Origin: Felis catus
Lineage: Eukaryota
Direction of reading: 5' to 3'
Assembly (NCBI RefSeq): GCF_018350175.1
Contig: NC_058368.1
Coordinates: 51,151,815 to 51,215,814 of the forward strand
DNA length: 64,000 nucleotides
Shown here in pieces: positions 1-47,029 of the stretch. Both the position numbers and the translations under genes were made by a program. The notes beneath the pieces are model-generated. The model was not told the DNA's origin and ran no database searches. It saw nothing but the letters and a program-made list of their open reading frames with translations. Each line of letters starts with the position of its first letter. The first letter of the stretch is position 1.

Positions 1-2819
1 ACGCACACTCAGGGATCACCAGAGGAACTTTGGGAACTCAGCAAAGAGTTGCACTCTGGTTAAGGGTTATACAGTGCAAGGTTACGTGACAGGGTCAACT
101 GGAGTAAAAGACACTGGCAGAGTCTGGAGGTTTGTGACGCCCCCTCCCACCAGCGAGGAGACACGTGAGTGTGTTCCTCTCTCCAGGAGTGAAAAATTCA
201 CTGAAGTCGGTACACTGTGTCTGCCCTGGGAAGAGACTCTGCACCCAAGGCTTTTAACAGTGTCTGGTCACGTAGGTCCCCTCCACCCAGCAACGATCAA
301 AATCGCCAACTCCAAGAAGGCGAGAACAGCGATGTCTGCACAGCCTAGGCCAAGCGAACCAGTTTTATGAGTCAGGGAGTGTGTATGTGCCAAGCTCCCA
401 GACGCCAGCCGAGATGAACCAAAGGCAGCAGCTTATGGCCTCCTATGGTCTCCTTTCTGCACAACTTTTCCCAGACTAAAATGCCTTTCTTTCCTATTTG
501 TGTGGCTTTGTGGGGGACAGACACATGACGACCAACTGGACTTTGCCTCCACCCCAGGAATTGTCTCTGCGCTGTAGCACTTGAGCTGTGTGTTCCATCA
601 CAGTATTAACTAAAACTGGTATCCCTGGGGCTTAAAGCTGTCACAGACCAAAGAGCTGTCGTGATTTTAACCCAGGCACTGAAAACGAAAATGTGACTTT
701 AAAGAGAAATTTTATATATTATGTTTTATAACAACTTTACTTGCAACCCTTTATCTAAAAAAGTTATCAGATAAGTCTCTTCCGACCCCACCTTAAGGTC
801 TGTAATGGCTCATGGAGGGAATCTCTTTGGAGAAGCTGAGTAGCTAGTGGGCATTCATTACCAACAAATTCATATCAAGGGCCTAATACAACAGAGGATG
901 TTCTCAGTGCAGGTGATAAAGCAGTCAATAGAATATTCAAGAACCTTTTACAATCATGAGCTTATAATCCAGTATGAGTAGAGAGCCCAGCAAAACAAGT
1001 ACCTAGGACAAGGAAAGTGCTCCATACCTATTCCGGCCTGGCTGTGCTTCCTTCATGCTTCCCCGGAGCGAATGTGAACCTTCCTTCAGTGGACTTCATA
1101 GTTTCTAGCTCTTCTGGGCCGGAGCATGACCTGTGACATTAAAAGATTTGTGGCACTGTAGAAATGCAGCTTCCCTGTCAATTCTGGAAGGACTTCCCTG
1201 CAGAGAGCAAAGCTACAGGGATCAGAAGACGGGGGGGGGGGGGGGGGTGCAAAGCCACAATAAGATACCCCACTTTCCCTACAGCAGAGGTGTGCCCCTG
1301 TACACACACACGTGTTGTGTCTTCCCATCATACGAAATCTACCAGCAGTGTTGCAGATTTTTATCACTCGGTGAAATTGTTTCATTCTCCCTCTCTTCTC
1401 CTATCCCATATTAAAAAACAACAAAAAAACCCCACACAAAACAGTATAGCGGTAGTTCACAGCTAGTGATCGTTGAAAAGACATCCAAAACAGAGGAGTG
1501 TTGCACAGGCTACTCTGGTTCCTGCTAAAGCCTGGGTGCCCAGCGACTGACAGCTGAACACTGAACACGTCAAAAGAATGTATGATACACAGTAACTTTA
1601 AGAAGGGTCCTGGCTTTATCTGAATCGTAAAGAACAGAATACCTTCACAGAAATCATGAAGATTAGTCATCTAGTTCAGTTGTAAATGCTGAAATCAACA
1701 TTCAGAGGTGAGCATCTCACTTAAATTCTCCCTGCTTTCTGTTGCAGTTATTATTAAAAATAATCCAACCCACCCCAGCTACAGCTGGTGTCCGTACAGG
1801 AACCAAACTGGAGGTTCAGGAAAAAGCCTTTGGAACAGCCCAACGCCCATCTGTTTGAAACACGGCATGAGAGTGTTGTTTCCGACTTTAAAAAACGAAA
1901 GACAGAAATGAAAGCGTGCTTGTTTAGAAACCATGTATCTCTGAATGATTCAGTGATGGTTATTTAATCTTTGAGCCAAGATCACACTGAAAGTTCCTAT
2001 CAGTAAGTGACAAAGTGGGTACTTCATTTGGCTGGAGCTGAATCTTTTCACTTGAACAATTTCTTCTAATTATTATAAGTAAAATATCACTTTTCAAATC
2101 CATTACAAAACATTATAAAATAGCCATTCTTCCTATTCCTTCAAAAAGCTCGTGCAGAGGGGCAGCACCTGTGCGGCTCGGACACCCCCGCCCCCCGCAG
2201 CCGTGTTTGCATCTAGGCTTCTGTGCAGCCGTGGCTCCAGCAGCATCACCGAACCTATCAGAAGAGGGGACAACGGAGTGGAGGAAAATGCTTCTTCAGC
2301 AACAGACAGCAGGACTGTGAAGAGAGTTACAATGATTAGCTTGCACTGGCCTCTCAAATGCTGCAGTGTGGAACAACAGCCCACGGGCACTCTGCACATA
2401 AAGTATCTGTTCTGACACGTGGCTTCATTTAAATATTCCCTTCGTAAGAGAAATGAAGGCTGTATGTACTAGGATCAATAGGAAATAATAAAGCAAGTAT
2501 AATTTGATCCATACAGCTGAATGGTATCACACAAGAGAATTGCTGCATTGAAATTTGCTTCTTACAGAGAAAGCCAATATATGTTGAAAGAATATTTTCC
2601 CTATGATTCAAAGCCATCTGGTGTCATCATCTTAAATCACTGTCCCTTACCATGTCCGCCCCCCCCTGCCCTAATGCCAATCACCAAATATGGCAACCCC
2701 ACAATGAAAGATGATTTGTTAAGTAGTCACATTTATATTCATCTGGAGGAAGGAAAATAGGAAAGCACTGTAGAGCCTGCTTACCCAGCAGTAAGCTTTT
2801 CATCCTTTTCTCCCCTTCC

Positions 2820-2987
2820 ATCCACACTGAATAGCGTGACCCACTGTGACTTCACAAGCAGGAAGGTTGTAGCTGCCAGCACACTGGAAATGAAGCACCC
2901 GCTGATAGGCATCTTGGCACAGCGGAGGGCTGAAAGAGTCCTTTACAGAACTGTTGACAGGGCAGTTCTGGGCCACCCCAAAACCAC
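2820..2987 (-). pseudogene. ES1/GATD3-like pseudogene, internal exon B (frameshifted)
   Basis: Acceptor tttgtag|GT. Reads GGFGVAQNCPVNSSVK, shift, TLSALRCAKMPISGCFISSVLAATTF, shift, PACEVTVGH. This matches GATD3 GGFGAAKNL...[26 protein letters not shown]. Confidence 0.82.
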
Positions 2988-3056
2988 CTACAAAGACAAG
3001 GAACCCAGGATTATTTGAGGCAGCTGACAAGAAGAACCTATGAACAATTAATTCTT

Positions 3057-3650
3057 TTTTTTGGTAATTTTTATTCATTTATTTTTAATATTATTTTTAA
3101 TTTTTTAAATTTATATCCAAATTAGTTAGTATATACTGCAACAATGATTTCAGGACTAGATTCCTTAGTGCCCCTTACCCAGTTAGCCCATCCCCCTCCC
3201 ACAACCCTCCAGTAACCCTCAGTTTGTTCTCCATATTTATGAGTCTCTTCTGTTGTGTCCCCCTCCCTGTTTTTATATTATTTTTGTTTCCCTTCCCTTA
3301 TGTTCATCTGTTTTGTCTCTTAAAGTCCTCATATGAGTGAAGTCATATGATTTTTGTCTTTCTCTGACTGACTAATTTCACTTAGCATAATACCCTCCAG
3401 TTCCATCCACGTAGTTGCAAATGGCAAGATTTCATTCTTTTTGGCTGCCAAGTACTACTCCATTGTATATATATACCCCATCTTCTTTATCCATTCATCC
3501 ATCAATGGATATTTGGGCTCTTTCCATACTTTGGCTATTGTTGATAGTGCTGCTATAAATGGGGGTGCACGTGTCCCTTCCAAACAGCACACCTGTATCC
3601 CTTGGATAAATGTCTAGTAGTGCAATTGCTGGGTCGTACGGTAGTTCTAT
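3057..3650 (-). mobile_element. 5'-truncated LINE-1 3' end (carnivore L1)
   Basis: L1 3' UTR and ORF2-end sequence with a T-rich tail. TSD ctatgaacaattaattctt at 3038-3056 and 3647-3665. Confidence 0.9.
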
Positions 3651-3834
3651 GAACAATTAATTCTTAAGCAAAGAATTAAGGTATATGAGAGCAATAACAC
3701 GTTATTAGAAAGGAAAAATAGCATTTCTTTAAGACTCTGGGGTTGACAATGACTCTAGTTAATTCATTAACTTCATTTTACAAAGTCAGAGTTGCAACCT
3801 CTATCTGTCAAAGTTGTTCAGAGATCATTTTGAC

Positions 3835-4032
3835 TTTTATTTTTTTAAGTTTACTTATTTATTTTGAGAGTGAGAGAAAAAAGAGAGCGCGCGCACGTGC
3901 ATAAGCAGGGGAGAGAGAGAATCCCAAGCAGGCTCCAAGATCGGCACAGAGCCTGGTCCCACGAACCGTGAGATCATGACCAGAGCCAAAATCAGAGTCA
4001 GATGCTCAACCAAGCGAGCCACCCAGGCGCCC
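3835..4032 (-). mobile_element. CAN-SINE (SINEC_Fc type)
   Basis: Reverse complement of ggggcgcctgggtggctc...(CT)n...aaataaa. Confidence 0.85.
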
Positions 4033-4604
4033 CTCAGAGATCCTTTTGTAAAGAGCTGATGCCAAATGCTAAAACACCAACCCAATTATTAGGGAGTTTA
4101 CATGGCTTCAATGTAGCCCTGTAGCAAATGGATTTTACAGATATAGAGGGTTTATATTAACCAAATAATAAGCACCATTTTGCATCAACAGTAAAATTCT
4201 GAAGACACAAGCTGGGATACCCATGTTGATAATAATTTTTGCTAAATACTTCAAGCGTGGTACAAATAGAACTATGTATTTTTAAAAAGCATTGGGGTAA
4301 TTTCATTTCTTCTAAAAACAAAATGCATCTTCATGTGTTAGAATAAAATACTTTTTTTTCAAATCACAGTAATTTTTAAAAATTGATTTACAAGTAACAC
4401 CATTTTAGATGTGAAAATACTAATTTTAACATCAGACCTCAAGGGCAATCATCTTTACAAACTGTCTCAGGGCATGCCTATTGGCAGTGAAAGAAAAAAG
4501 AATACAACTAAAAGACACCAGCAACTCAAATAAAATTATCTCCTTTACTGCCCTCACCCTGCATTTGGTAAATAGATATTTTAATTTATGTTATATATAT
4601 AGTA

Positions 4605-5090
4605 TGTAGAAAGTCTTCAAAGATGGTGCCCTAATATGCACGCCTCCTGGTACTCGTGCCTTTTGGTATTCTCCTTTCTTTGAACCTAGTCTCCCTTTTG
4701 ATCAACAGAATGTGGCATAAGTGATTCTGAGGGACATCTGTGGCTAGAGCAGAAGAGGAAAGCCTGGGTCTCTTGGAATGCTTGCTCTGGGGGATGCCAG
4801 CTTGCATGTGAGAAGCTCAGACACCCCAAGGTCTGTAAGTTACAAAGAAGCCCAAGATTGCCACATGGAATGGCCAGATGGCTGCACAGCCAACCAATCC
4901 CGACTCAGGCATCAGACTGGAGCCTGATTGAATCTTCAGATGTCTGCAGCTCCAGCCACCATGCAGCTGCAGGAGAGGCCTCAAGCAAAGCTCAAGCTAA
5001 GCCTAGTCAACCAACAGAACCAGGAAAGATAATAAATTATTAAGACACTAAATTTTAGTGGTAATTGTCATATAGCAACAGATATCTGGA
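4605..5090 (-). mobile_element. MaLR (MLT1-like) LTR, diverged
   Basis: Ends with taaattttagtggtaattgtcatatagcaacagatatctggaataca-like sequence, a reverse-oriented MLT terminus. Confidence 0.55.
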
Positions 5091-5162
5091 ATACTTTATA
5101 TGTAAAATAGCAGTAAGCAACCTGCTCAGATAAATATGTATAAGCATCCACAAGTGGCACAC

Positions 5163-6183
5163 TTTTGTTTTTTTACATTTACCTATTTTTGAGAGACAGA
5201 GAGAGACAGAGCACAAGTAGGGGAGGGGCAGAGAGAAAATGAGACGCAGAATCCCAAGCAGGCTCCAGGCTTTGAGCTGTCAGCACAGAGCCCGACGCGG
5301 GGCTCGAACTCACAAACTACAAGATCATGACCTGAGCCAAAGTCGGATGCTTAACCAACTGAGCCATCCAGGTGCCCCCTCACTTTTTTTAAATGTTATT
5401 TATTTTTGAGAGAGAGAGAGAGAATGAGCAGAGGAGGCACAGAGAGAGGGAGACACAGAATCTGAAGCAGGCTCCAGGCGCTGTGCTGTCAGCACAGAGC
5501 ACAGTGCAGGGCTTGAACTCACGAACTGTGAGGTCATGACCTGAGCTGAAATGGGACACTTAACTGAATGAGCCACCCAGGTGTCCCAGCACACTTCTTA
5601 CCTAAAACGATGATTTCCGATTCTCACTGTGGGACATCTCCTAACTGCCTCCATAGATTTCAACAATATTGTGAATGTTTAAAATACTCTTAAAATAGGG
5701 TCACCTGGGTGGCTGAGTCAGTGAAGTGTCTGACTCTTGATTTCGGCTCAGGTCATGATCTCACAGTTTGGGAGATGGAGCCCTGCATCAGGCTCTGCAA
5801 TGGCAGTGTGGAGCCTGCTTGGGATTCTCTCTCTCCCTCTCTCTCTGCCCCACCCCCATGTGTGCATGTGTGCACGCTCTCTCTCAAAATAAATAAATAA
5901 ACATTTAAAAAAAACAAAATAATCTTAAAATAAAACTGATTGTTAGTGTTTAAACAAACTAAACCAACTTGGGACACCTGGGTGGCTCAGTTGGTTGAAC
6001 ATCAGACTCTTGATTTCCTGGCTCAGGTCATGATCTCACGGTTCGTGAGTTTGAGCCCCACGTTGCTCTCTGCGCCAACAGTGAGGAGCCTGCTTGGGAT
6101 TCTCTCTTTCCCTCTTTCTCTCTCTGCCCCTCCCCTGCTCTCTCCCTCTTTCAAAATAAATAAATAAATTATATATATATATG

Positions 6184-6216
<33 letters not shown>

Positions 6217-6626
6217 GTATGTATATATGTATATGTACATATATACATACATGTATATATGTATACATATATATATAATTAAACTAAAACTGGTTAGTTT
6301 GAAAAATAAATATATAACATTGAATTCCTTATGAGGGGATTAAATAAAAGGAAAAAAAATACTTAAGACAATTATACTTGTAAGTCAATATTTATTTTAT
6401 TTTTTAAAGAAATTTTTTAAACGTTTTTATTTATTTTTGAGACAGAGAGAGACAGAGCATGAGCAGGGGAGGGGCAGAGAGAGAGAGGGAGACACAGAAT
6501 CCGAAGCAGGCTCCAGGCTCCGAGGCATCAGCCCAGAGCCCGACGCGGGGCTCAGACTCACGGAGTGTGAGATCATGACCTGAGCCGAAGTCGGACGCCC
6601 AACCGACTGAGCCACCCAGGTGCCCC
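5163..6626. mobile_element. Cluster of five CAN-SINEs (5163-5378 -, 5382-5587 -, 5697-5915 +, 5970-6170 +, 6405-6626 -)
   Basis: Each has the tRNA-like head (cctgggtggctcag), a (CT)n tract and an A-rich tail. A (TA)/(CA) microsatellite lies at 6170-6280. Confidence 0.88.
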
Positions 6627-6889
6627 AATCATTTATTTTAAAAGGTAGGTATACATCCATATGTACAGGCATGTAGATAGGCAGGTCACCTATCTATAAA
6701 GTGATCACTGTGCTGAAAAGGTCTAGAAACAGGCAACCCTCCACTGTGATTTCCAGAGTCTTGAGGCCTCAAAATGTGGGCTGCATGCCACATGCCACCT
6801 GTCACCTGAGAGCTGAATAAGAATCTGCACTGTAACAAGATCTCCAGGTGAATCACCTACCAATTAAACTTAGAGATATGCCGTTCTAG

Positions 6890-7225
6890 TGCAGTGGATC
6901 CCAAATTTGTCTGCATATGAGAATCACCTAGGAACCTTAAAACTTCCGAAATTTTGGGAGGGAGGACACAGGCATTGGTGGTTTTAAAGCCTACCAGGTG
7001 ATTCCAGGTGCAGCCAAGTCTGGGAACCACTGGTCATTCTTGATAGAGCACTGGTTCTCAATCGTTGCTACACAGTGGAAGAACCTGTAAAGCATCAAAA
7101 AGCACTGACATCTGTTTCCACCCCCAGAAAGTCTGATGTAACTGGTCTGAGATGTGACCCAGGCACTGAGACTGTTTAAAGGCTTTCCAAGTGACTTTCA
7201 TGTGCAGCAAAGTTTGAGAACCATG
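6890..7225. mobile_element. Two adjacent MER5-like (hAT-Charlie) MITEs
   Basis: cagtggatcccaaa...tgggaaccactg and ctggttctcaa...tttgagaacc termini with gaatcacct cores. Confidence 0.6.
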
Positions 7226-7354
7226 ACCTACCTCCTGGCACAGAGGCTTCAAAATGGCAGCTGAATCTGTGCAGCTTTTGCTGGAAGAGGGTTTAGAGTC
7301 AGTGAACATTAATTAAAATGAACAGTTGGCCTCAACAGCTTTCAGCTAACTCAC

Positions 7355-7525
7355 CGGTGTAATGGCAGCTTCAAGCTTGCTGGAGTTCAGGTCTGCCAAA
7401 TCTTGTAGGCCCCCATGGGCTCTTCTGGCACTTTCCTTTGGTACATTTCTCTTCTCTTCTGTTGGGCTCCCTTTCAAGTGATTAACAATGTACATCTGCT
7501 CAGCATTAGGAGCAAATAGCTTCAC
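7355..7525 (-). pseudogene. ES1/GATD3-like (DJ-1/PfpI superfamily) pseudogene, internal exon A
   Basis: Flanked by tttttgaag| and |gtgagt. Encodes VKLFAPNAEQMYIVNHLKGSPTEEKRNVPKESARRAHGGLQDLADLNSSKLEAAITP, which aligns by eye with GATD3/ES1 [58 protein letters not shown]. Confidence 0.85.
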
Positions 7526-7812
7526 CTTCAAAAATAGAAATAAAAACAAATGATGTCATTGCCTCTTTGAAAACAATCAAGCAAATCAATCTTAGAGCCT
7601 AAATAAACCAGGAAGGAAAGTCAGAAAACCACTAAGTAATTCCGTATGCCTTCAGGGCCAACACCAACTACAAATATCAGCCACAAGAAAGAAACTGCAG
7701 GGGACTTCTAGAGGGGAAAAAAAGAGCTATAAATTAGCTTCTAGAAAGAAAGTAGAACAGAAACAGGTTGCTTTCCAAATACATCTATCTATCTATCTAC
7801 ACACATACAGAA

Positions 7813-7813
<1 letters not shown>

Positions 7814-7857
<44 letters not shown>
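7814..7857. repeat. (TG)n microsatellite
   Basis: Uninterrupted TG dinucleotide run of about 22 units. Confidence 0.95.
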
Positions 7858-7859
<2 letters not shown>

Positions 7860-7861
<2 letters not shown>

Positions 7862-8640
7862 CAGTTTACCCTTGAACAATACAGGAGTTAGGGACACTGA
7901 CCTCCTATGCAGTCAAAAATTCATCTATTGGGGCACTTGGATGGTTCATGCAGTTAAGCATCTGACTCCTGATTTCAGCTCAGGTCATGATTTCACAGTT
8001 CATGGGACTGAGTTCTGCACCCAGCTCCGTACTGATGGCACAGAGCCTGCTTGGGATTCTCTCTCTCCCTCCCTGCACCTCCCCTGCTTACATATGTGCA
8101 CTCTCTCTTAAAATAAATAAATAAACATTCTTAAAAATTTTGTGTATAGGGGCACCTGGGTGGCTCAGTCAGTTGGGCCTCTGACTTTGGCTTGGGTCAT
8201 GATCTCACAGTTTGTGAGTTCAAACCCCGCATCGGGCTCTGTGCTGACAGCTCAGAGCCTGGAGCTTGCTTTGGATTCTGTGTCTCCCTCTCTCTCTGCC
8301 CACCCCCCCCCCCCCACTTGCACTCTGTCTCTCTGTCTCTCAAAAATAAATAAACATTAAAAAAATTTTGTGTATAACTTCTGACTCCCCAAAAACTTAA
8401 CTACTAATAGACTACTGTTGACCAAAAACCTTACTGATAACATAAACTGTCAATTAATACATATTTTGTATGTTATATATATTATATACTGCACTCTAAC
8501 AATATAGTAAACTAGGAGAAAAGAAAATGTTAAGAACATCATAAGAGAAAATACATTAACAGTACTGTATTGTATTTATTTGAAAAAATTCTGCATATAA
8601 GTGGTCCCACGCAGTTCAAACCCATGTTGTTCAAGAGTAC
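7860..8640. mobile_element. Tigger3/MER7-like non-autonomous DNA transposon split by two SINEs
   Basis: Terminal inverted repeats cagtttacccttgaacaa...ttgttcaagagt. SINEs inserted at about 7930-8125 and 8148-8365. Confidence 0.75.
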
Positions 8641-9335
8641 ACAATTTTTAAAGAGATATAAGAGAGGTTCCAATTTTATAGATAGGAACATATAGGGCTC
8701 AAAACCATAGGAGGGTTGATTAAATTTAGCTTTAAAATCTTTCTAAAGCAGGGATTCTCAACCCTGGCTGCGTATTAGAATCACTTGGGCAACTTGAGGC
8801 CCAAACAGAACAGGTACATGGAAATTTCTGGGAATGAAGCACCATCTTGGATGGTGGTATGTCTTAAAATCTCCTTAAAATCTTCCATCATTTGCAGGGT
8901 TAGCAATGACTGATCTAAAGCAAATGGAAAATAAAACTCACAAACTCAGGGCTCTGAGTTAAAATCTCAAGGGTTTAAATGCCAACAGCCCAAAGTAGAC
9001 CATTTGGAAGCCCTTGCTTGACCCACCTTCACACATCCAGCCCAACCAAGCTCTGGATTGACACCCCCAGTCTGCCATCAGAAACCGTTCCTCTTTCCCC
9101 AACTGTTGGATCCTGCATGGGCGCTGATCTGGGGAGCCATGAGGATTTGGAAGCAAGGAAGGAAGCTCAGGGTGGGCACCTATATACTAGGGGGCCTTGG
9201 TGTCCTACCTTCTTCACTGACTTCTACCCCACCTCAAAACTTGCAGGTGTACTTCTCCAGGAACTGGACAAGACTGGTCTGAGTCAAACGTCCCTTGGCT
9301 TTCTGAGAAGGCATCATTAAGACCTGAAAGCATAT

Positions 9336-9540
9336 GGGTGCCCGGGTGGCTCAGTCGGTTGAGCATCCAACTTTTGATTTTGGCTCAGGTCATGATCCCA
9401 GAGTCGAGGGATTGAGCCCTGCATGAGCGTGGAGTCTGCTTAAGATTCTCTCTCTCTCCCTCTGCCCCTTTCCATGCTTACACACTCTCACACTCTCTCT
9501 CAAATAAAAAAAAAAGAGAGAAACTTTATTTAAAAAAAAG
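9336..9540 (+). mobile_element. CAN-SINE
   Basis: SINE head, CT tract and A tail. Confidence 0.8.
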
Positions 9541-9705
9541 ACTAGAAAGTGTATGACTATGTCTTAGCTTCCTGTTATTAAACTTTGTATTTGATTAAAA
9601 TATATATTAATATTCTAAACATTCTCTCTTCCCTGTAGTTTTGGTTTTACAAAATTGAGCAATATCTCCTGTCTGTGGGATAGATCTCTCTATGGGAGAG
9701 ATTCT

Positions 9706-9937
9706 TTTTTTTTTTTTTTTTAATTTTTTTTTTTCAACGTTTATTTATTTTTGGGACAGAGAGAGACAGAGCATGAACGGGGGAGGGGCAGAGAGAGAGG
9801 GAGACACAGAATCGGAAACAGGCTCCAGGCTCCGAGCCATCAGCCCAGAGCCCGACGCGGGGCTCGAACTCACAGACCGCGAGATGGTGACCTGGCTGAA
9901 GTCGGACGCTTAAGCGACTGCGCCACCCAGGCGCCCC
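9706..9937 (-). mobile_element. Young SINEC_Fc with perfect TSD
   Basis: CpG-rich near-consensus body. TSD tctatgggagagattct at 9689-9705 and 9938-9954. Confidence 0.92.
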
Positions 9938-11504
9938 TCTATGGGAGAGATTCTAAGCACAGATACAACCCATTATTAGTAAAAAGAGAAGAAGAAAAAA
10001 AAAACCCTTAAAACATTCTGAAGGTCAAGAAAGATGCAAAAAAAAATGTGGATTGGTTTTTAAACCAATAATTCCGGAAAACAGACTGGCTTGCTGTTGC
10101 TTTGTGAAATTAATCAGATCCACCTGCCTAAGGTGGAAGTGAAGATGAAAACTTAAATTTCACCTAACTCTACCCTGCCCCAGAATTCTATAACTCTATT
10201 TTTTCCTTTAAGAAGATGCCATACAGTTCCGCTGGTGTGCAACAGTTCAATGGTTGATAAACATGATTTTATCAGACTACAGTAATGTTCTGAGTGTTCT
10301 TAAGCTAACTGAGCAAGGACCCAGAGGGAAAAAATTGGATTAAAATTCAACCTATTTTTTGATGAAATCTTCAAAGATTAAAAATCATGAACTGCACAAT
10401 GAGGGATCAGGCAACAATAGTCTACAAGCATCTTTAGCCTGGGGTGCTGGGGTCATAGCCAAAAGGAACAGAAGGCAGAACCACACCACAGCAGATGGGA
10501 GCTAGTGAGAGGCTGATTTAGGGCTAATTTGAGGAACTGCTTTCTTGCCATTAGAGCCCACTGCTCACGGAATGAAGAGACTGCAGTCCCAAGAGAGGAG
10601 ATCCCCACCACTGACCGTGGTCAACTTGAAGCTTGTTTCTGCAGCTCTGGGAAGTCTTGAGTAGGATGGGAAGCTCCACTGTGGCCCTCTAGCGTGTTCC
10701 ATTATTTGTAAATTGTTACTCTGGAGAGGTGTCTCAGTTTTAAGCCATGTTCAAGTACATGCCCAGTGGGAATGCCCTGGTGCCCTTCAAATTGGAATTT
10801 CAGCTGTTATAGCTAGGATGTGTCCCCACGCCCTCACTTTTTGTGGGTCTTTAGGAGAGGCTTAGTTTAGGCTAGGTGATTTTGAACTGGGCCATGGTAT
10901 ATGGAGGAGAGCTAGGATTGGAGCCACCTAAACACTTAGATAAATGGGTGTTAAAATGGTGCCCTGCTTGGATCTCCACAGAATTCCTCAACCCAGTGCA
11001 GCAAGTGGTCAAAGGTGGGGGGGGATGGGGTGCGAGGGTGCAGGGAGGGTTAGGGGAGAACTAATTCCCATCAGCCCTCAGAAAACCTTGTATGCTTAGG
11101 GAAGCACCCCACGCTCCTGCCATCCCCAGCAAGGGTCATTGGTGGTCACCTATGGCCACTGCAGCCACCTCACTTATTCCATTATGCTTACAAATACCAT
11201 GAGGGTTCACTCATGTTGTGAGTGAAGGCATGCTGCTCTCTTGTAAAAAAAAAAAAAAAAAAAACGTGACTATAAGTTATTACACTTTTAATGCACTACT
11301 TATAGACATAAGTCAGTATCTTTGTATGAAAGTATGACAGGCCACAAATATCTCACCAGAAACAAGGCAGTTGATCCCATTGTCTTCAAGTGGATGAAAG
11401 GCCAAAGAAAGGGTAATGCAGAATCTTCTCCTCTGTTCACGTGGTAGAGCCCAACAAGGACGACCATCTGGGGATAAGGGGCCGAGGGCATTACAGAGCA
11501 TTTA

Positions 11505-11695
11505 GGGGTACCTGGGTGGCTCAGTTGGTTAAGCATCTGACTCTTGATTTCGGCTCAGGTCATGATTTCCCGGTTTGTGAGAGGAAGTCCTGCATTGGGC
11601 TCTGTGCTGACAGCGTGGAGCCTGTTTGGAATTCTCTTTCCTCTCTTTGCCCCTCTCCTGCTTGCACATGCTCTCTCTCAAAATAAATAAATTAA
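11505..11695 (+). mobile_element. CAN-SINE
   Basis: SINE head and tail, flanked by agagcattta / aaagcattta. Confidence 0.85.
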
Positions 11696-12059
11696 AGCAT
11701 TTAGAGTAGTATTATGGGCTATATATAGTAAGTGCTGGCCATTGTTCTCACTGGCTTAAGACTGAGGGGGGGGAGGGGGGGGAGGACCAGTCATTCCTCC
11801 ATTATTGTCTTCCTCACTGCACCACCACCTCCAAATAATGATTCTTATACTCAAATGTTTGTTGTCACCTAGTCTGGGCCCTGTGTGGCAGGGTAAGAGT
11901 TCCGTGCTAGAGAAGCCAAAGGAAGAGCCCAAAGTTGGATTGGTTTCTTGGTTTGGTTTGGTTTGGCTGGTAGTTACTGCGCAGAGGTCAGAAAACAGCT
12001 CCAAACACGCGGTGATCTCTACACAGACGCGGGGCCAGAAGAACAAGGCATTCTGAGTC

Positions 12060-12720
12060 AGTTTCAGAAAAAGGAGGCCCCACGGCGCGGATGGAGTGCG
12101 CCAGGGTGCCGGGCCCCAGCGCCGCGGCACGGTCTGCTGAGGGCAGGGGAAATGGCTGCACTGCAGGGCTCCAGTGTCTCACCCCCAGGCCGGCGCCCCG
12201 CGCCCCAGTCTCCGGTCAGGGAGAGGGCGGGACCAGGCCGACCAAAGTGGCCCAGTCCAGGGTTCACAAGGCTCGCGGGGGGGGGGGGGGGGGGCGGGGT
12301 TCCGTGCGCATGCTCAGCTCGCGGGCCCTTCGCGTCGCCGGGCTCGGGAGGCGCCGGAAGCACCGGGAGACGCCACATGGCGCAGGCGGGGAGCGCTGGC
12401 CGGGGGGCCGCGGGGCAGAAGCCCGCGGGCGCGGCCCCGGGGTGCGCGCTTTGGCGCTGGGCCCTGGGGCTGCTGTGGCTGGCGTTGGCCGCCGCGGGCT
12501 CCTCCCGGCGCCAGTGGCCCGTGCCCTACAAGTGAGTGCGCGCGGCGCGCGGGCGTGGCGGGGCGGACGCGCGCACTGGCGGGGCGCGGTGCCGGGGTCG
12601 GGAGGCGGAGGCGGCGCGGTGGAGGACCGAGTTGAGCTGTTCGCTGCGCGTCGCCCAGGCCCTTTCTTCCTCTTGGGACACTTGAACTGCTTTCTAGGTG
12701 GCTTAGGCTCAGGGCAGGCC
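12060..12720. promoter_or_regulatory. CpG island / CLN5 promoter
   Basis: Very GC- and CpG-rich. Contains GC boxes, an NRF1-like TGCGCATGCTCA (12305-12316), an ETS core CCGGAAG (12354-12360) and a G18 run (12277-12294). Confidence 0.85.
12377..12531 (+). CDS. CLN5: CLN5 coding exon 1 (signal/transmembrane N-terminus)
   Basis: ATG at 12377 gives MAQAGSAG...LWRWALGLLWLALAAAGSSRRQWPVPY(K), matching the CLN5 N-terminus (RRxWPVPYK). Donor AA|gtgagt at 12531/12532. Lies in a CpG island. Confidence 0.93.
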
Positions 12721-19470: not shown

Positions 19471-20450
19471 AGAAAACAAGCTTTATATTATTCCATAGTT
19501 TTAATTCTAAAAAATTGATAAAGGCAGCCGCTGTATTCATTTTATAGGACATGAAATATTGATTTCATGGACTCAAGTTGGAGCACTTAAGAAAGGTTCA
19601 CATATATGGTGACAAATTGAAATGCTGTAGTGAAGCTTTATTAGGCACTGTAAATGCCCAGATGAGGTTGTAACCACGCAAAGTATAGTGTTTTGTTAAC
19701 ATTTGGAGAGATTCCTTTGGTCGGGTACAAGGTCGTAGGAGAGCGTGAGCTGTTCCGGAGTCTGTAATAGGCCACGAACGTGGCCGAAAACATTTCCAGT
19801 TTAAGTTGATTCATTGGAAGAATTTGTATGGTTAGTGGGAAGGTTGTGAGCAGAATCCGAACAGTTGCAAGTACAAAAAGAAAAAGGAAATACCAGGTAT
19901 TCGGGGTGGACAGGGTATGGTACTTTCTCTTGTAACATTAGTAGGCCAGCCTTCTAAAGTAGCTGTTCCTCTGGCTGCCGTTCGTACTGTACACACGCAA
20001 TGCCTTGTGACAGAAAAGCTCTGCGTTTCACCCTCCTCCATTCTTACACTGCCTTTGCTCCACTCTCTTTTCCCTCTATCCACAATTTTTCCTTGTTTTC
20101 TTTCTTTACCTTTGAATCCAAGATTTGTTGGGTGGGGTAAAGAGGGCTTCTGCATGTGTATGATTTTGCTTTTATAGCTTAAATGATTACAGAATTGGTA
20201 TGTAAGACTTGATACCCCTATTATATCTAAGGTTTACAATTCAGAAATACCTTGTGCTTTGAAAAATGGAATAAAAATTGGCTAAGCTTGGATTCCTATT
20301 GTGAGTACAGGTTTGGAACTGATATTACAAATAATTTAATAATTTAATAATATTATTTATTCATGACCTTAATCAGGTTAGAACATTTGACATAAGACTA
20401 ATGATTGGCTTTGATGTTCACATAGGAATTTTTTTTTTTTTTTTAACTAG

Positions 20451-20962
20451 GAAACACATTTAACAAGATGGCAAAGTGGGTAAAATGGGACAATGAAACA
20501 GGGATTTATTATGAGACATGGACCGTCCAGGCCAGCCCAGAAAAGGGGGCGGAGACATGGTTTGAATCCTACGACTGTTCCAAATTTGTGTTAAGGACAT
20601 ATAACAAGTTGGCTGAACTTGGAGCAGAGTTCAAGAAGATAGAAACCAACTACACAAGAATATTTCTTTACAGTGGAGAGCCTACTTATTTGGGAAATGA
20701 AACGTCTATTTTTGGGCCAACAGGAAATCAGACTCTTGCTTTAGCCGTAAAAAGGTTTTATTACCCCTTCAAACCACATTCATCAACTAAAGAATTTCTG
20801 TTCAGTTTCTTGCAAATTTTTGATGCAGTGATTATACACAGACAGTTCTATTTGTTTTATAATTTTGAATATTGGTTTTTACCTATGAAATTCCCTTTTA
20901 TTAAAATAACATATGAAGAAATCCCTTTACCTAACAGAAACGACACACTCTCTGGTTTATAA
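20451..20962 (+). CDS. CLN5: CLN5 coding exon 4 (terminal); lysosomal CLN5 protein / BMP synthase
   Basis: Poly-T tract then ctag|GA. Encodes [24 protein letters not shown]...[11 protein letters not shown]...[12 protein letters not shown]. Spliced CDS 155+166+226+512=1059 nt, 352 aa. Confidence 0.97.
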
Positions 20963-36745: not shown

Positions 36746-37211
36746 CTGTAAAGTAATCCAAGTATACTAAATTTGCTCAGGAATAAATCTATACACAATT
36801 ACCAGAAGATTTTATAAATAAGCTATACCTGTTCTCACTACTGGCACTGTCTACTTTTCTTTGATTGTAATTTCACAAATCTGCTCTGAAAGTCCAAAAA
36901 GGAGCTGCTATATGTCCTTTTCCTAATTTGCTTCTCAGTTTTAGTCACTTTTAGTACATCTCTTTGCTGAATCCTCTGCAAATTCACTCACTCTTTAACT
37001 TTTCCCATCAAGAAGCACAAGGTGATCAGAAAAAGGAAAAGCTTTATTAAAACTCCTATTGTCTGACATTCTAAATAAACAGTAACTAGTTTTCCATTAT
37101 GTATACTATTTTTCTTACACTCCCATGGTCACTACAAGAAATGACCACTACAAGGGCAGGGCTTCTATCGGATTTCTCAGTAACTGCCAACAACATAAAA
37201 CCAGCAAATAC

Positions 37212-37334
37212 CTTTGGTAAATCCATAAAGCTTGGCCGAGCCGTTGAAATAAGTCCAAGTGTTTTTAATGAGCAATTTACCAGTTGCGATAATATATCAC
37301 AAGCTGCTTCAGCTGATTCTTTGCTGCTGTCCAC
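37212..37334 (-). CDS. FBXL3: FBXL3 coding exon 2
   Basis: Acceptor ttttctaag|GTG. Encodes [41 protein letters not shown]. Donor AAG|gtatt. 123 nt. Confidence 0.96.
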
Positions 37335-37877
37335 CTTAGAAAAGAACACACCATTTACCTATGCATATATTTACATTTCTCTGTGTGACCTTAATTTTAC
37401 AGAAGAAACAGTTATTAGTTTATTACATTACAAATAATCTCCATCTAAGAAGGAATGATGTGAGAGCAGACAAGACTAGTTTTGGCAAAGAACTTGAATT
37501 AAGAACCACTGCTTTATCTAGGTTTAATGTGACCTGTTAAATAAATGCTAGCTATGGGTAATCAGGTATTCATGTGTTACTTTTCAAAAATTATCAGGTA
37601 GGTTAAAGATTTAGTAAACATGCCTACATTCCATTATTCATCCCCAAAACAAAATACTATAAGCCTCTGTACTCCTATAAACCACTGTGATTCCTTAAAC
37701 TACTCTAGACATCTCAAAAAGCCACCCCACTTCAATTATCTCATCACTGCATGAATTCCAGTATGTCCCTTCTGGCAATGAAAAGAAACAAACGGTTCTC
37801 TTTGGCATTCTTCCACGTCCTTTTTTCTATTTCTCTCTAAAATATATTCATCTAAACCTTTTACATAAAATTTCTGA

Positions 37878-38810
37878 GGGATGCCTGGGTGGCTCAGTCG
37901 ATTAAGCATCCGACTTCGGCTCAGGTCATGGGGTTTGTGAGTTCGAGCCCCTGCTGGGCTCTGTGCTGACAGCTTGGAGCCTGGAGCCTGCTTCAGATTC
38001 TGTGTCTCCCTCTCTCTGCTAACCCTAACCCTAACCCCGCTCATGCTCACTCACTCTCTCTCAATAACAAACATTAAAAAATTTTTTTTATCTCCTTTTT
38101 CTTTGAAAACCCCATATCATAAAGCCATCAATAAGCAGAATTCAGTCTCTATTAAACAGTAATAGCAATTAAGTTTTAGTCAATCATAATCTCCATTTTT
38201 TTTTTTAAGAGAGTGAGCACAAGCAGGAGAGATGGGCAGAGGGAGAGAGAGAATCTTAAGCAGGCTCCACACTGAGCATGGAGCCCAATGCGGACTTGAT
38301 CCCACAACCCTGGGATTATGACCTGAACGAAATCAAGAGTCAGACGCTCAAATGACTGAGCCACCCAGGCACCCCTTCACATTTTTTATTTATTTTATTG
38401 TATATTTTTTCCTCAAACTTATTGAAAATAATTCAATGTGACTGACAGCTTTAGTAAATGATTTATGCTTATTTAGTAGCTGCTTCTGTTCTTTTAATAA
38501 ATTATGAATTATGATAAAAATAAAAAAATAACTATGTTAAAAATTATGATAAAAGTAACAGCTGGAATTAGTTCTGCAGCTTCTAAATGATATAAAAAGT
38601 ATTTTTTTAATGTTTATTTATTTTTGAGAGACAGAGACAGACTGGGAGCAGGAGATGGGCAGAGAGAGAAGGAGACACAGATTCCAAAGCAGGCTCCAGG
38701 CTCTGAGCTGTCAGCACAGAGCCCAACGCGAGGCTCGAACTCAAAAACAGCGAGATCATGACCTGAGCCGAAGTCGGATGCTTAACCGAATGAGCCATCC
38801 AGGTGCCCCT
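37878..38810. mobile_element. Three CAN-SINEs in an FBXL3 intron (37878-38080 +, 38195-38375 -, 38602-38810 -)
   Basis: SINE head, CT tract and tail structure. Confidence 0.85.
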
Positions 38811-38960
38811 CTGCAGCTTCTAATGTATACAACAATTCTAATCATTAAGAACTTTCTCTAAAAAGGCAATATTTTAAAAACATGAGAACATATTTTGGCT
38901 TAGGATAAAAAAAGCCACTGAATATACTTTATTTTTTAAAAGAAGGATTTAAAGTATTAC

Positions 38961-39308
38961 CTTGAAGCTGACATATTGCAGATGGTTTGAATGTCTTTTA
39001 ATAATCTGTTTGATCAGCTCCGGGTGTGTAGCTTTCAAGTAAGATGTAGCTGGCTGATTCAGTTCAAATTCAAAACATCTCCACAAGTCAGGCATGTGAA
39101 ATACCTGGTTCCAGTTGCGGCAAACTTGTGAAGCATGAGCCCGGTCAAGAAGAGGCAAATACTTAAATACTTGGAGAATAATGTCCTGAAGGAGATTACC
39201 CCAATCACAAGTCTGAGATTGCTCATTTGTAGTCCTCAGTTTCTTAGATTTCTCTGCAGTACCTTCTTCTGATAAATTATGGTCACTATCTCTTCCTCCT
39301 CGTTTCAT
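38961..39308 (-). CDS. FBXL3: FBXL3 first coding exon (contains the F-box)
   Basis: MKRGGRDSD...[33 protein letters not shown]...YVSFK. Acceptor tag|G-ATG (exon starts at 39309). Donor AAG|gtaat. 116 codons. Confidence 0.97.
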
Positions 39309-45037: not shown

Positions 45038-45628
45038 GAACTTGTGTTTTAAAACTTGTGTTTATTTTTAAATCAGTCAATACTTATTTACATTTATTAG
45101 TTGTATTAGTCAAGATCAATGCCATTTTAGGGGAAGGAAGAAGAAGGTGTATGTGGGATAGTTTGGTCCAGCACAGAAGAATGTTTTATTGCTAATCCTG
45201 TTTAGCATTGCCAATATATGTGATAATAAAAGGCATACCAATATTTAGTTAGCATTATTATTGCTTTTAAATTCTCTACAGACAATGTACCCCCTCTACC
45301 AGGGACGGGCTATTCCCACTACCTTCATGAGGAAATAGACATAATAAAATACTTTTGGAAGCAATATAAATTTGAAATATAAAATTTTTGCATGAATAAA
45401 TGAGATTATCATGGAAAAAATTGACATTTAAAATTTTTATTAGGTGCCTACAGTATTATTTTCATGTGTGAATGAGGATAATAGAGACCATTTTTATCAG
45501 CATTTGACCTTGTATTTTTTCCGTTGCTAAAGATGCTATAATTCTGACATATCACAGTCATGTTACGTATGACAATTTACAGACTTTTGTTCACCTTGGC
45601 ACTCCACTGATTAAGATAGGTTAGGTTA

Positions 45629-47029
45629 TGGCACAAAAACAGACACATAGACCAATGGAATAGAATAGAAACCCCAGAACTAGACCCACAAACGTATGGC
45701 CAACTCATCTTTGACAAAGCAGGAAAGAACATCCAATGGAAAAAAGACAGCCTCTTTAACAAATGGTGCTGGGAGAACTGGACAGCAACATGCAGAAGGT
45801 TGAAACTAGACCACTTTCTCACACCATTCACAAAAATAAACTCAAAATGGATAAAGGGCCTAAATGTGAGACAGGAAACCATCAAAACCTTAGAGGAGAA
45901 AGCAGGAAAAGACCTCTCTGACCTCAGCCGTAGCAATCTCTTACTCGACACATCCCCAAAGGCAAGGGAATTAAAAGCAAAAGTGAATTACTGGGACCTT
46001 ATGAAGATCAAAAGCTTCTGCACAGCAAAGGAAACAACCAACAAAACTAAAAGGCAACCAACGGAATGGGAAAAGATATTCGCAAATGACATATCGGACA
46101 AAGGGCTAGTATCCAAAATCTATAAAGAGCTCACCAAACTCCACACCCGAAAAACAAATAACCCAGTGAAGAAATGGGCAGAAAACATGAATAGACACTT
46201 CTCTAAAGAAGACATCCGGATGGCCAACAGGCACATGAAAAGATGTTCAGCGTCGCTCCTTATCAGGGAAATACAAATCAAAACCACACTCAGGTATCAC
46301 CTCACGCCAGTCAGAGTGGCCAAAATGAACAAATCAGGAGACTCTAGATGCTGGAGAGGATGTGGAGAAACGGGAACCCTCTTGCACTGTTGGTGGGAAT
46401 GCAAATTGGTGCAGCCGCTCTGGAAAGCAGTGTGGAGGTTCCTCAGAAAATTAAAAATAGACCTACCCTATGACCCAGCAATAGCACTGCTAGGAATTTA
46501 TCCAAGGGATACAGGAGTACTGATGCATAGGGCCACTTGTACCCCAATGTTCATAGCAGCACTCTCAACAATAGCCAAATTATGGAAAGAGCCTAAATGT
46601 CCATCAACTGATGAATGGATAAAGAAATTGTGGTTTATATACACAATGGAATATTACGTGGCAATGAGAAAAAATGAAATATGGCCTTTTGTAGCAACGT
46701 GGATGGAACTGGAGAGTGTGATGCTAAGTGAAATAAGCCATACAGAGAAAGACAGATACCATATGGTTTCACTCTTATGTGGATCCTGAGAAACTTAACA
46801 GGAACCCATGGGGGAGGGGAAGGAAAAAAAAAAAAAAACAAAAACAGGTTAGAGTGGGAGAGAGCCAAAGCATAAGAGACTGTTAAAAACTGAGAACAAA
46901 CTGAGGGTTGATGGGGGGTGGGAGGGAGGAGAGGGTGGGTGATGGGTATTGAGGAGGGCCCCTTTTGGGATGAGCACTGGGTGTTGTATGGAAACCAATT
47001 TGTCAATAAATTTCATAAAAAAAAAAAAA
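45629..47029 (+). mobile_element. Young 5'-truncated LINE-1 (ORF2 C-terminal part, 3' UTR, polyA)
   Basis: Open ORF2 frame 45629-46789 including [24 protein letters not shown] plus pure polyA tail. TSD aagataggttaggttatg at 45613-45630 and 47028-47045. TT/AAGA nick site. Confidence 0.96.

What the first reader, a model, noticed from the sequence alone, without database searches (positions are those of the whole stretch)
2820..7525. Hidden intron-containing ES1/GATD3-like (DJ-1/PfpI family) gene remnant upstream of CLN5
Seen: two minus-strand segments about 4.4 kb apart, each preceded by a polypyrimidine-AG acceptor, encode consecutive parts of an ES1/GATD3/ElbB-type protein (FAPN...HLKGSPTEEKRNVxxESAR, then GGFGVA...KMPI...VLAA...EVTVGH). 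Known: GATD3/ES1 proteins belong to the class-I glutamine-amidotransferase-like DJ-1/PfpI superfamily, and canonical GATD3 is not at the CLN5 locus in human. Inference: the retained introns exclude a processed retrocopy, so this is probably an old paralog that died in place (a unitary pseudogene). I recall GATD3-like models near CLN5 in some other vertebrates but cannot verify that here.
Basis: partly seen in the sequence, partly recalled or inferred. Interest (0 to 1): 0.88.

Follow-up and report, generated by a model that had tools for sequence, protein, structure and literature searches.

The report
Dead glyoxalase-like gene beside ACOD1
This is the broken remains of a gene that is still intact in marsupials, platypus, birds, reptiles, amphibians and fish, that likely encoded a detoxifying (glyoxalase-type) enzyme, and that likely died once in an early placental-mammal ancestor right next to the immune gene ACOD1.

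Summary
On the minus strand between ACOD1 (about 5 kb left of the window) and CLN5 lie three collinear exons (7525-7355, 2987-2815 and an unreported one at 2254-2113) of an ES1/ElbB-type gene. It is not a copy of canonical GATD3, which is intact elsewhere in this genome with different introns. It is the orthologue of a pan-vertebrate paralogue (chicken GATD3AL1, fish zgc:162944): closest to marsupial proteins (66%), whose gene models splice to neighbouring FBXL3. Here exon 1 (catalytic Glu) is undetectable, and there are four frameshifts, 30- and 36-nt losses, a dead donor and an early stop. A 30-nt deletion is shared by carnivores, bats and deer, and exon 2 changes without regard to conserved sites, so it is a unitary pseudogene, inactivated before the Laurasiatheria split. 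It is still spliced from a new first exon, and databases carry it as short 'GATD3-like' proteins. No intact placental copy turned up, but only laurasiatherians were named. Extra lead: a GAT-domain gene is reported beside invertebrate IRG1 and IRG1L, so this may be the lost partner of ACOD1. New member of a known kind.

The parts
7355..7525 (-). Ancestral exon 2, 171 nt, no internal stop; one base shorter than the 172 nt implied by the intact proteins, so splicing to exon 3 shifts the frame
2815..2987 (-). Ancestral exon 3, 173 nt against 205 expected: 30-nt deletion, -2, -1 and +1 frameshifts; the segment with the Cys-Cys-Ile elbow is out of frame and its second Cys codon reads Phe
   Evidence: end point inferred from the alignment and the phase of exon 4
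2943..2945 (-). Premature TAA that ends the 79-codon frame of the spliced RNA (new exon + exon 2 + exon 3)
   Evidence: a 79-aa RefSeq model (P0057) differs from this read at 1 of 79 residues
2813..2814 (-). Position of the ancestral exon-3 donor, now GG instead of GT
   Evidence: sequence; position inferred from alignment
2113..2254 (-).
11357..11380 (-). 3' end of a new, non-homologous first exon (ATG in frame with exon 2, GT donor); 5' end not mapped; intron of 3,831 nt to exon 2
   Evidence: joint in one contig of run X3; same N-terminus in felid and pinniped models
12001..12600 (.). Context: CpG island at the CLN5 start (ATG 12377, + strand), about 0.6-1 kb upstream of the new first exon, head to head; likely source of the residual transcription (inferred)
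   Evidence: CLN5 identity from Pfam PF15014 E 4e-84 on 20447-20959
37209..39308 (-). Context: first two coding exons of FBXL3; in marsupial and grouse models these exons are spliced to exon 2 of the intact gene, which ties the orthologues to this locus

Best explanation
The locus is a broken, intron-retaining remnant of the vertebrate gene GATD3AL1 / zgc:162944, likely a unitary pseudogene inactivated once before carnivores, bats and even-toed ungulates split, which is still spliced but is predicted to make no working enzyme. How it worked: the intact gene has four coding exons (inferred from exon ends here and from where database models break off) for a 224-226-aa ElbB/ES1-type protein with invariant Glu20 and Cys136-Cys137 (shown, 96 of 96) and, in tetrapods, no N-terminal leader (shown), so it likely is a non-mitochondrial glutathione-independent glyoxalase/deglycase (inferred from GATD3A, mouse ES1 and ElbB; not tested for this paralogue). 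How it died: exon 1 with the Glu became unrecognisable and exon 3 lost 10 conserved codons and its frame (shown; order of events unknown); later lineage-specific lesions piled up. What is left: transcripts from new first exons near the CLN5 CpG island reuse the surviving exon-2 acceptor (joint shown in one contig; promoter inferred) and stop after 79 codons.
For: Family and collinearity. Orthology: window read 65-66% identical to marsupial proteins, 53-64% to other members of the clade, 47-54% to the sister paralogue, 45-47% to canonical GATD3; inside the GATD3AL1 clade with FastTree support 0.996; in a 16-taxon IQ-TREE run it joins the marsupials and AU tests reject grouping with canonical GATD3 (p 2.6e-6) or the sister paralogue (p 0.006). 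Synteny: FBXL3-spliced models in 3 marsupials and 2 grouse (matched to window FBXL3 exons); ACOD1 on the left, CLN5 on the right. Canonical GATD3 is intact on C18 with seven exons and other intron positions. Death: lesions; exon 1 not found (control exon of GATD3 found at 4e-11). The 10-residue block is absent in 9 of 10 placental-type models checked (1 unreadable) and in 0 of 96 intact proteins. Branch length 0.59 against about 0.06 for marsupials. In 17 placental-type exon-2 reads, fish-invariant columns change as often as variable ones (ratio 1.06, p 0.87), in 17 intact amniotes far less (0.37, p 0.0015). None of 200 intact-looking proteins falls in the placental clade.
Against: Position inside the clade is unstable: in the 45-taxon FastTree the placental group sits near the base of the clade and in the large tree it pairs with one divergent lizard protein, as expected from a long branch. 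Synteny in non-placentals is read from spliced gene models, not from genomes. Named placental remnants are all laurasiatherian; primates, rodents, afrotherians and xenarthrans were not seen in either state, and only the best 120 of 7,708 and of 569 hits were listed. Exon 2 stays open in many lineages and its first third plus the acceptor change little. The neutrality test is on proteins, on hand-picked reads, without phylogenetic correction, and can only see open frames. The splice joint rests on one contig of a run only guessed to be RNA; two other runs gave nothing.
Confidence: 0.88

Rival explanations
1. The protein gene is dead but the locus was kept as a non-coding RNA or regulatory element: the exon-2 acceptor region would matter for a spliced RNA running antisense from the CLN5 promoter towards ACOD1.
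For: Models from carnivores, horse, deer, camel, bat and pangolin all enter at the same acceptor; the 24 intronic bases before it translate alike in 10 unnamed genomic-type entries listed; the first 19 codons of exon 2 change less than half as often as the rest (counts); joint seen in run X3.
Against: First and last exons differ between lineages; start-codon choice and word-based search bias the entries seen towards a conserved 5' part; the 5' part is CpG-poor; contig depth is only 3-5 and a raw-read run gave 0 reads in the 2% read.
Confidence: 0.1
2. The short database proteins (74-240 aa, 'GATD3-like' or 'glyoxalase ElbB-like') are real functional microproteins built on exon 2.
For: Exon 2 is open and has an in-frame ATG from the new exon in felids and pinnipeds; RefSeq calls them coding.
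Against: Both catalytic residues are missing; conserved sites are not spared; N- and C-termini differ between lineages; a 2-codon deletion in mustelids; inter-order identity 66-79% against 74-86% among intact proteins from much older splits.
Confidence: 0.04
3. Same gene, different timing: the loss is limited to Laurasiatheria (or happened several times) and other placental groups keep an intact copy.
For: No primate, rodent, afrotherian or xenarthran remnant was named; the shared lesions date the loss only to the laurasiatherian ancestor.
Against: An intact placental protein should rank above fish, where listed hits go down to 67% identity; the intact-mammal clade holds only marsupial- and monotreme-type sequences; the placental group has a long stem (0.28).
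Confidence: 0.15
4. It is a decayed duplicate or retrocopy of canonical GATD3.
For: Same family; 45-47% identity; database names say GATD3/3A/3B.
Against: Introns present and at other positions than in this genome's GATD3; AU test rejects it (p 2.6e-6 and 4e-19).
Confidence: 0.01

Closest known systems
Chicken GATD3AL1 (UniRef E1BQD1), zebrafish LOC569993 / teleost zgc:162944, and marsupial and monotreme orthologues
   Same: Same clade, same exon boundaries as read from spliced models, linked to FBXL3; chicken protein is listed in a broiler liver proteome table (PMC12262841, one passage seen).
   Different: Those are intact; here exon 1 is gone and exons 2-4 carry frameshifts, deletions and an early stop.
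Canonical GATD3/GATD3A (ES1 homolog), mitochondrial deglycase / glyoxalase III
   Same: Same ElbB/ES1 family and catalytic Glu/Cys layout (PMC8935817 and PMC10209487, passages seen).
   Different: Separate clade, seven exons with other introns, N-terminal leader, other chromosome (C18), intact in this genome.
Sister paralogue: teleost si:ch211-153b23.5 and, probably, the Salmonella-induced chicken 'ES1' (LOC422305, chromosome 4)
   Same: Nearest paralogous group in the trees; fragments break at matching exon ends. Infection-induced in chicken caecum (PMC4256799, PMC4574724, passages) and listed beside irg1l in a Shigella zebrafish figure legend (PMC6980646, one passage).
   Different: Different clade (AU p 0.006); no trace in this genome. 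That LOC422305 belongs to this group is my inference; I had no sequence under that name.
E. coli ElbB (PDB 1oy1, 1vhq; NCBIfam NF008747)
   Same: Marsupial orthologue aligns over residues 4-225 at E 7e-55, ElbB's elbow Cys on the second Cys of the Cys-Cys-Ile motif.
   Different: Bacterial; the window keeps only fragments.
Unitary pseudogenes of placental mammals (general class; examples such as GULO or vitellogenins are recalled, from no call)
   Same: Orthologue intact in outgroups, remnant in place with introns, shared lesions, relaxed selection.
   Different: I found no paper describing this one.

Membership tests
ES1/ElbB family (DJ-1/PfpI superfamily) | Significant sequence match to family members or profile | tested here: met
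   Exon 2: PDB E 2e-6, NF008747 E 2.9e-13; exons 3 and 4. Pfam PF01965 does not hit the fragments.
ES1/ElbB family (DJ-1/PfpI superfamily) | Catalytic Glu (N-terminal DGxE) and elbow Cys present in one reading frame | tested here: not met
   Exon 1 not found; Cys region out of frame, second Cys reads Phe. Met in 96 of 96 intact relatives. So: derived from the family, not a working member.
ES1/ElbB family (DJ-1/PfpI superfamily) | Glutathione-independent glyoxalase/deglycase activity (of the intact orthologue) | not testable with these tools
   Shown for mouse/human GATD3 in PMC8935817 and PMC10209487 (passages); no assay of GATD3AL1 found.
GATD3AL1 / zgc:162944 orthogroup | Falls in this clade, alternatives rejected | tested here: met
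   exact place within the clade unstable.
GATD3AL1 / zgc:162944 orthogroup | Same genomic position | tested here: met
   Indirect: FBXL3-spliced models in 3 marsupials and 2 grouse. ACOD1 and CLN5 adjacency in those species not viewed.
Unitary pseudogene | Disabling lesions | tested here: met
Unitary pseudogene | No intact orthologous copy elsewhere in the genome | tested here: met
   Own-genome searches with marsupial and lizard proteins give only this locus and canonical GATD3 (5 matches of 9 candidates; 6 of 10); only best candidates are scored.
Unitary pseudogene | Relaxed selection | tested here: met
   Protein-level only; dN/dS not computed, no DNA of other mammals at hand.
Processed retrocopy | Introns absent | tested here: not met
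   Introns of 4,367 and about 560 nt with AG acceptors.
Zebrafish cone es1 orthologue | Groups with es1 in a tree | not tested
   No es1 sequence in my set; the zebrafish member of this clade is LOC569993, 224 aa without leader, whereas es1 is a 31 kDa protein with a leader (PMC4772128, passages).

The most novel reading that the evidence does not exclude
An ElbB-type enzyme gene has travelled with the itaconate synthase gene since before the vertebrate genome duplications (GAT beside paleo-IRG1 and IRG1L; GATD3AL1 beside IRG1/ACOD1). It is a co-induced partner that clears a reactive by-product of the itaconate/innate-immune burst, and placental mammals are the lineage that lost both IRG1-linked copies, leaving ACOD1 to work without it.
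Probability: 0.18. Interest if true: 0.78.

Novelty: new member of a known kind. Interest (0 to 1): 0.5.

Why it matters
It documents a loss of an enzyme gene that is strongly conserved from fish to marsupials, on or near the placental stem, which my searches did not find in print. It explains a set of misleading database entries named GATD3/3A/3B or ElbB-like in carnivores, bats, horse and deer. And it puts a GAT-domain gene next to ACOD1/IRG1, where a preprint on IRG1 evolution says in its text that GAT genes flank only paleo-IRG1 and IRG1L; with the infection-induced sister paralogue this gives a direct test of whether itaconate-making cells of birds, fish and marsupials have a partner enzyme that placentals lack.

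Tried and rejected
Exon 1: a candidate at 11126-10981 (used in mustelid models) and the whole of 7600-12370 scored no better than shuffles (23.0; 14 of 15 shuffles as high); an exon-1 HMM over the window plus 50 kb of left flank gave best i-E 14. My recalled lead that this is the Salmonella-induced chicken 'ES1' failed: that gene is LOC422305 on chromosome 4, and I take the CLN5/FBXL3 block to be on chicken chromosome 1 (recalled). One search's spliced read looked in frame only because my exon-3 boundary was one base off; corrected. The first IQ-TREE run timed out; FastTree and a 16-taxon IQ-TREE run replaced it. Earlier findings of this scan: none by sequence or words. No fold or complex prediction was run, since sequence evidence settled the family.
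Full report
Observation. Segment 1 is an open exon of 171 nt, 7525-7355, with an AG before and a GT after. It matches ElbB/ES1 chains in the PDB (best E 2e-6) and the NCBIfam ElbB model (E 2.9e-13). Segment 2 begins at 2987, 4,367 nt further on; its motifs lie in two frames. Pfam does not hit the fragments.

Intact relatives. A search of 50%-identity representatives with a placental-type model (663 hits, best 150 listed) led to bird proteins, and a search with one of them (7,708 hits among 8,000 scored candidates, best 120 listed) returned a coherent family of 224-226-aa proteins from birds, turtles, lizards, amphibians, fishes, platypus and marsupials. Cluster look-ups name echidna, opossum, koala, dunnart and wallaby members, chicken GATD3AL1 and zebrafish LOC569993; teleost entries are labelled zgc:162944. 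In three marsupials and two grouse the database models splice the first FBXL3 coding exons to exon 2 of this gene; those FBXL3 exons match window 39308-38958 and 37337-37209 at 87% and 100%. This is indirect but specific synteny. In this genome the order is ACOD1 (last exon ends about 4.9 kb left of the window), the remnant on the minus strand, CLN5, FBXL3.

Anatomy. A frameshift-aware profile from 96 intact proteins scores them 179.8, 120.0 and 66.3; 0 of 20 shuffles reached any of these. An HMM scan of 114 kb gives i-E 2e-23, 7.5e-4 and 2.1e-3. Lesions: exon 2 is one base short at its end; exon 3 lacks 10 codons and has -2, -1 and +1 shifts, its Cys-Cys-Ile motif is out of frame with the second Cys read as Phe, and the inferred donor is GG; exon 4 has a net loss of 36 nt and stops five codons early. 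Exon 1, which carries the catalytic Glu, was not found in 7600-12370 (14 of 15 shuffles scored as high) nor in the window plus 50 kb of flank (best i-E 14, while the matching exon of canonical GATD3 scored 4e-11). Glu20, Cys136 and Cys137 are invariant in 96 of 96 intact proteins; ElbB's elbow Cys aligns with the second Cys.

Which gene. Canonical GATD3 is intact on contig C18 with seven exons, other intron positions and an N-terminal leader. Read with X or gaps at its breaks, the remnant is 65-66% identical to marsupial proteins, 53-64% to other clade members, 47-54% to the sister paralogue and 45-47% to canonical GATD3. FastTree on 45 sequences puts it in the GATD3AL1 clade (0.996) within a placental group (0.990), but near the base of that clade; a 16-taxon IQ-TREE run joins it to the marsupials, and AU tests reject canonical GATD3 (p 2.6e-6) and the sister paralogue (p 0.006); in a larger FastTree it pairs with one divergent lizard protein. 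The clade is firm, the exact branch is not. Two own-genome searches found no other copy and no trace of the sister paralogue. Zebrafish cone es1 was not in my set.

When it died. Short models of this locus are named from pinnipeds, mustelids, felids, two bats, horse, deer, camel and pangolin, all Laurasiatheria. Of 10 placental-type models that I chose because they run into exon 3, 9 show the 10-codon loss and 1 is unreadable; 0 of 96 intact proteins have it. Named carriers span Carnivora, Chiroptera (Rhinolophus) and Cetartiodactyla (Cervus). The first frameshift is shared with Cervus and a RefSeq model whose species name was cut off, but not evident in Rhinolophus; the second shift and the read-through of the donor are shared with Rhinolophus. 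None of 200 intact-looking proteins (of 223 examined) falls in the placental group, and the intact-mammal clade holds only marsupial- and monotreme-type sequences. Other placental orders were not seen in either state, so the placental-stem date is inferred.

Is anything still selected? The remnant's branch is 0.59 against about 0.06 for marsupials. In 17 placental-type exon-2 reads (hand-picked, roughly one per lineage, several unnamed and assigned by similarity) columns invariant in 31 fish proteins change as often as variable ones (1.62 vs 1.52, p 0.87); in 17 intact amniotes they are spared (0.38 vs 1.04, p 0.0015). This argues against a functional peptide. Against my reading: the first third of the exon and the acceptor change little, which may be search bias, low CpG or a real non-coding constraint.

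Transcription. Of 4 runs laid on 7340-7560, one contig (X3, only guessed to be RNA, depth 5) leaves exon 2 at its acceptor and continues with 20 letters that match 11358-11377: a GT-AG intron of 3,831 nt from a new first exon. The same contig runs on into the next intron, so it is not a retrocopy. A second run holds the exon with its unspliced acceptor; two gave nothing. Splicing on to exon 3 gives 79 codons ending at 2945-2943, matching a RefSeq model at 78 of 79 residues. The new exon lies 0.6-1 kb from the CLN5 CpG island, head to head; a shared promoter is inferred.

Function of the lost enzyme. Human/mouse GATD3 is a mitochondrial deglycase and glyoxalase III (PMC8935817, PMC10209487; passages seen). 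Tetrapod GATD3AL1 proteins start at the domain without a leader (alignment), so a cytosolic glyoxalase-type role is my best inference; I found no assay. The chicken protein is listed in a liver proteome table (PMC12262841, one passage). A preprint on IRG1 evolution (10.1101/2022.06.17.496652; passages and the Results section read; its synteny figure and supplements not seen, and they may already show this gene under a human name) says that GAT, VOC, YrdC and oxygenase genes flank paleo-IRG1 and IRG1L but not IRG1, and that IRG1L was lost in therians. Here a GAT-family remnant ends about 7 kb from the ACOD1 stop. The sister paralogue si:ch211-153b23.5 is listed next to irg1l in a Shigella zebrafish figure legend (PMC6980646, one passage), and a chicken 'ES1' on chromosome 4 is induced 20-30-fold by Salmonella (PMC4256799, PMC4574724; passages). 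That the preprint's GAT gene, the fish gene and the chicken gene are the same paralogue, and that the two pairs are ohnologous, is inference. PMC4772128 (passages) covers cone es1.

In print. Searches for GATD3 + CLN5 (0 papers), gene names (9 papers, incidental mentions in the two I opened), unitary pseudogene/gene loss terms, ACOD1 + GATD3 + synteny and irg1l cluster terms gave no description of this loss; for most of these I saw the listing only, the library lacks most subscription journals, and genome-wide gene-loss supplements, which I did not open, may list it.

Verdict. The class is ordinary, the case seems undescribed, and the ACOD1 link gives a testable but unproven question. Interest 0.5.

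Noticed in passing
P0187, P0295, P0296 (marsupials), P0182, P0298 (grouse); window 39308-37209 and 7525: Database models in marsupials and grouse join FBXL3's F-box exons in frame to exons 2-4 of the intact gene, jumping over CLN5 on the other strand: an F-box/ElbB chimera of about 350 aa that lacks the catalytic Glu. The FBXL3 donor and the exon-2 acceptor survive in the window; whether the splice occurs here was not tested.
   Followed up: partly
window 7526-7550 and 7525-7470: The acceptor region and first third of exon 2 look more conserved across placental-type entries than the rest of the exon; may be bias or a non-coding constraint.
   Followed up: partly
P0357 (Cervus elaphus hippelaphus): A predicted protein fuses exon 2 to a KCTD8/12/16 domain, consistent with KCTD12 lying further down the same strand (its position is recalled, not checked).
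   Followed up: no
window 11126-10981 and about 1260-930, minus strand: Stretches used as exons in mustelid, pinniped and bat models of this locus; no similarity to the ancestral protein found.
   Followed up: partly
P0233-P0287 (percomorph fishes): Many fish orthologues carry an extra N-terminal stretch of about 29 residues that tetrapod and cyprinid orthologues lack; it may be a mitochondrial leader.
   Followed up: no
G000:C18:2320100-2329750: Canonical GATD3 of this genome, seven coding exons, catalytic motifs intact.
   Followed up: yes
window 45620-46790, + strand: A 389-codon open stretch that reads like the end of a LINE-1 ORF2 (recalled resemblance, not searched).
   Followed up: no
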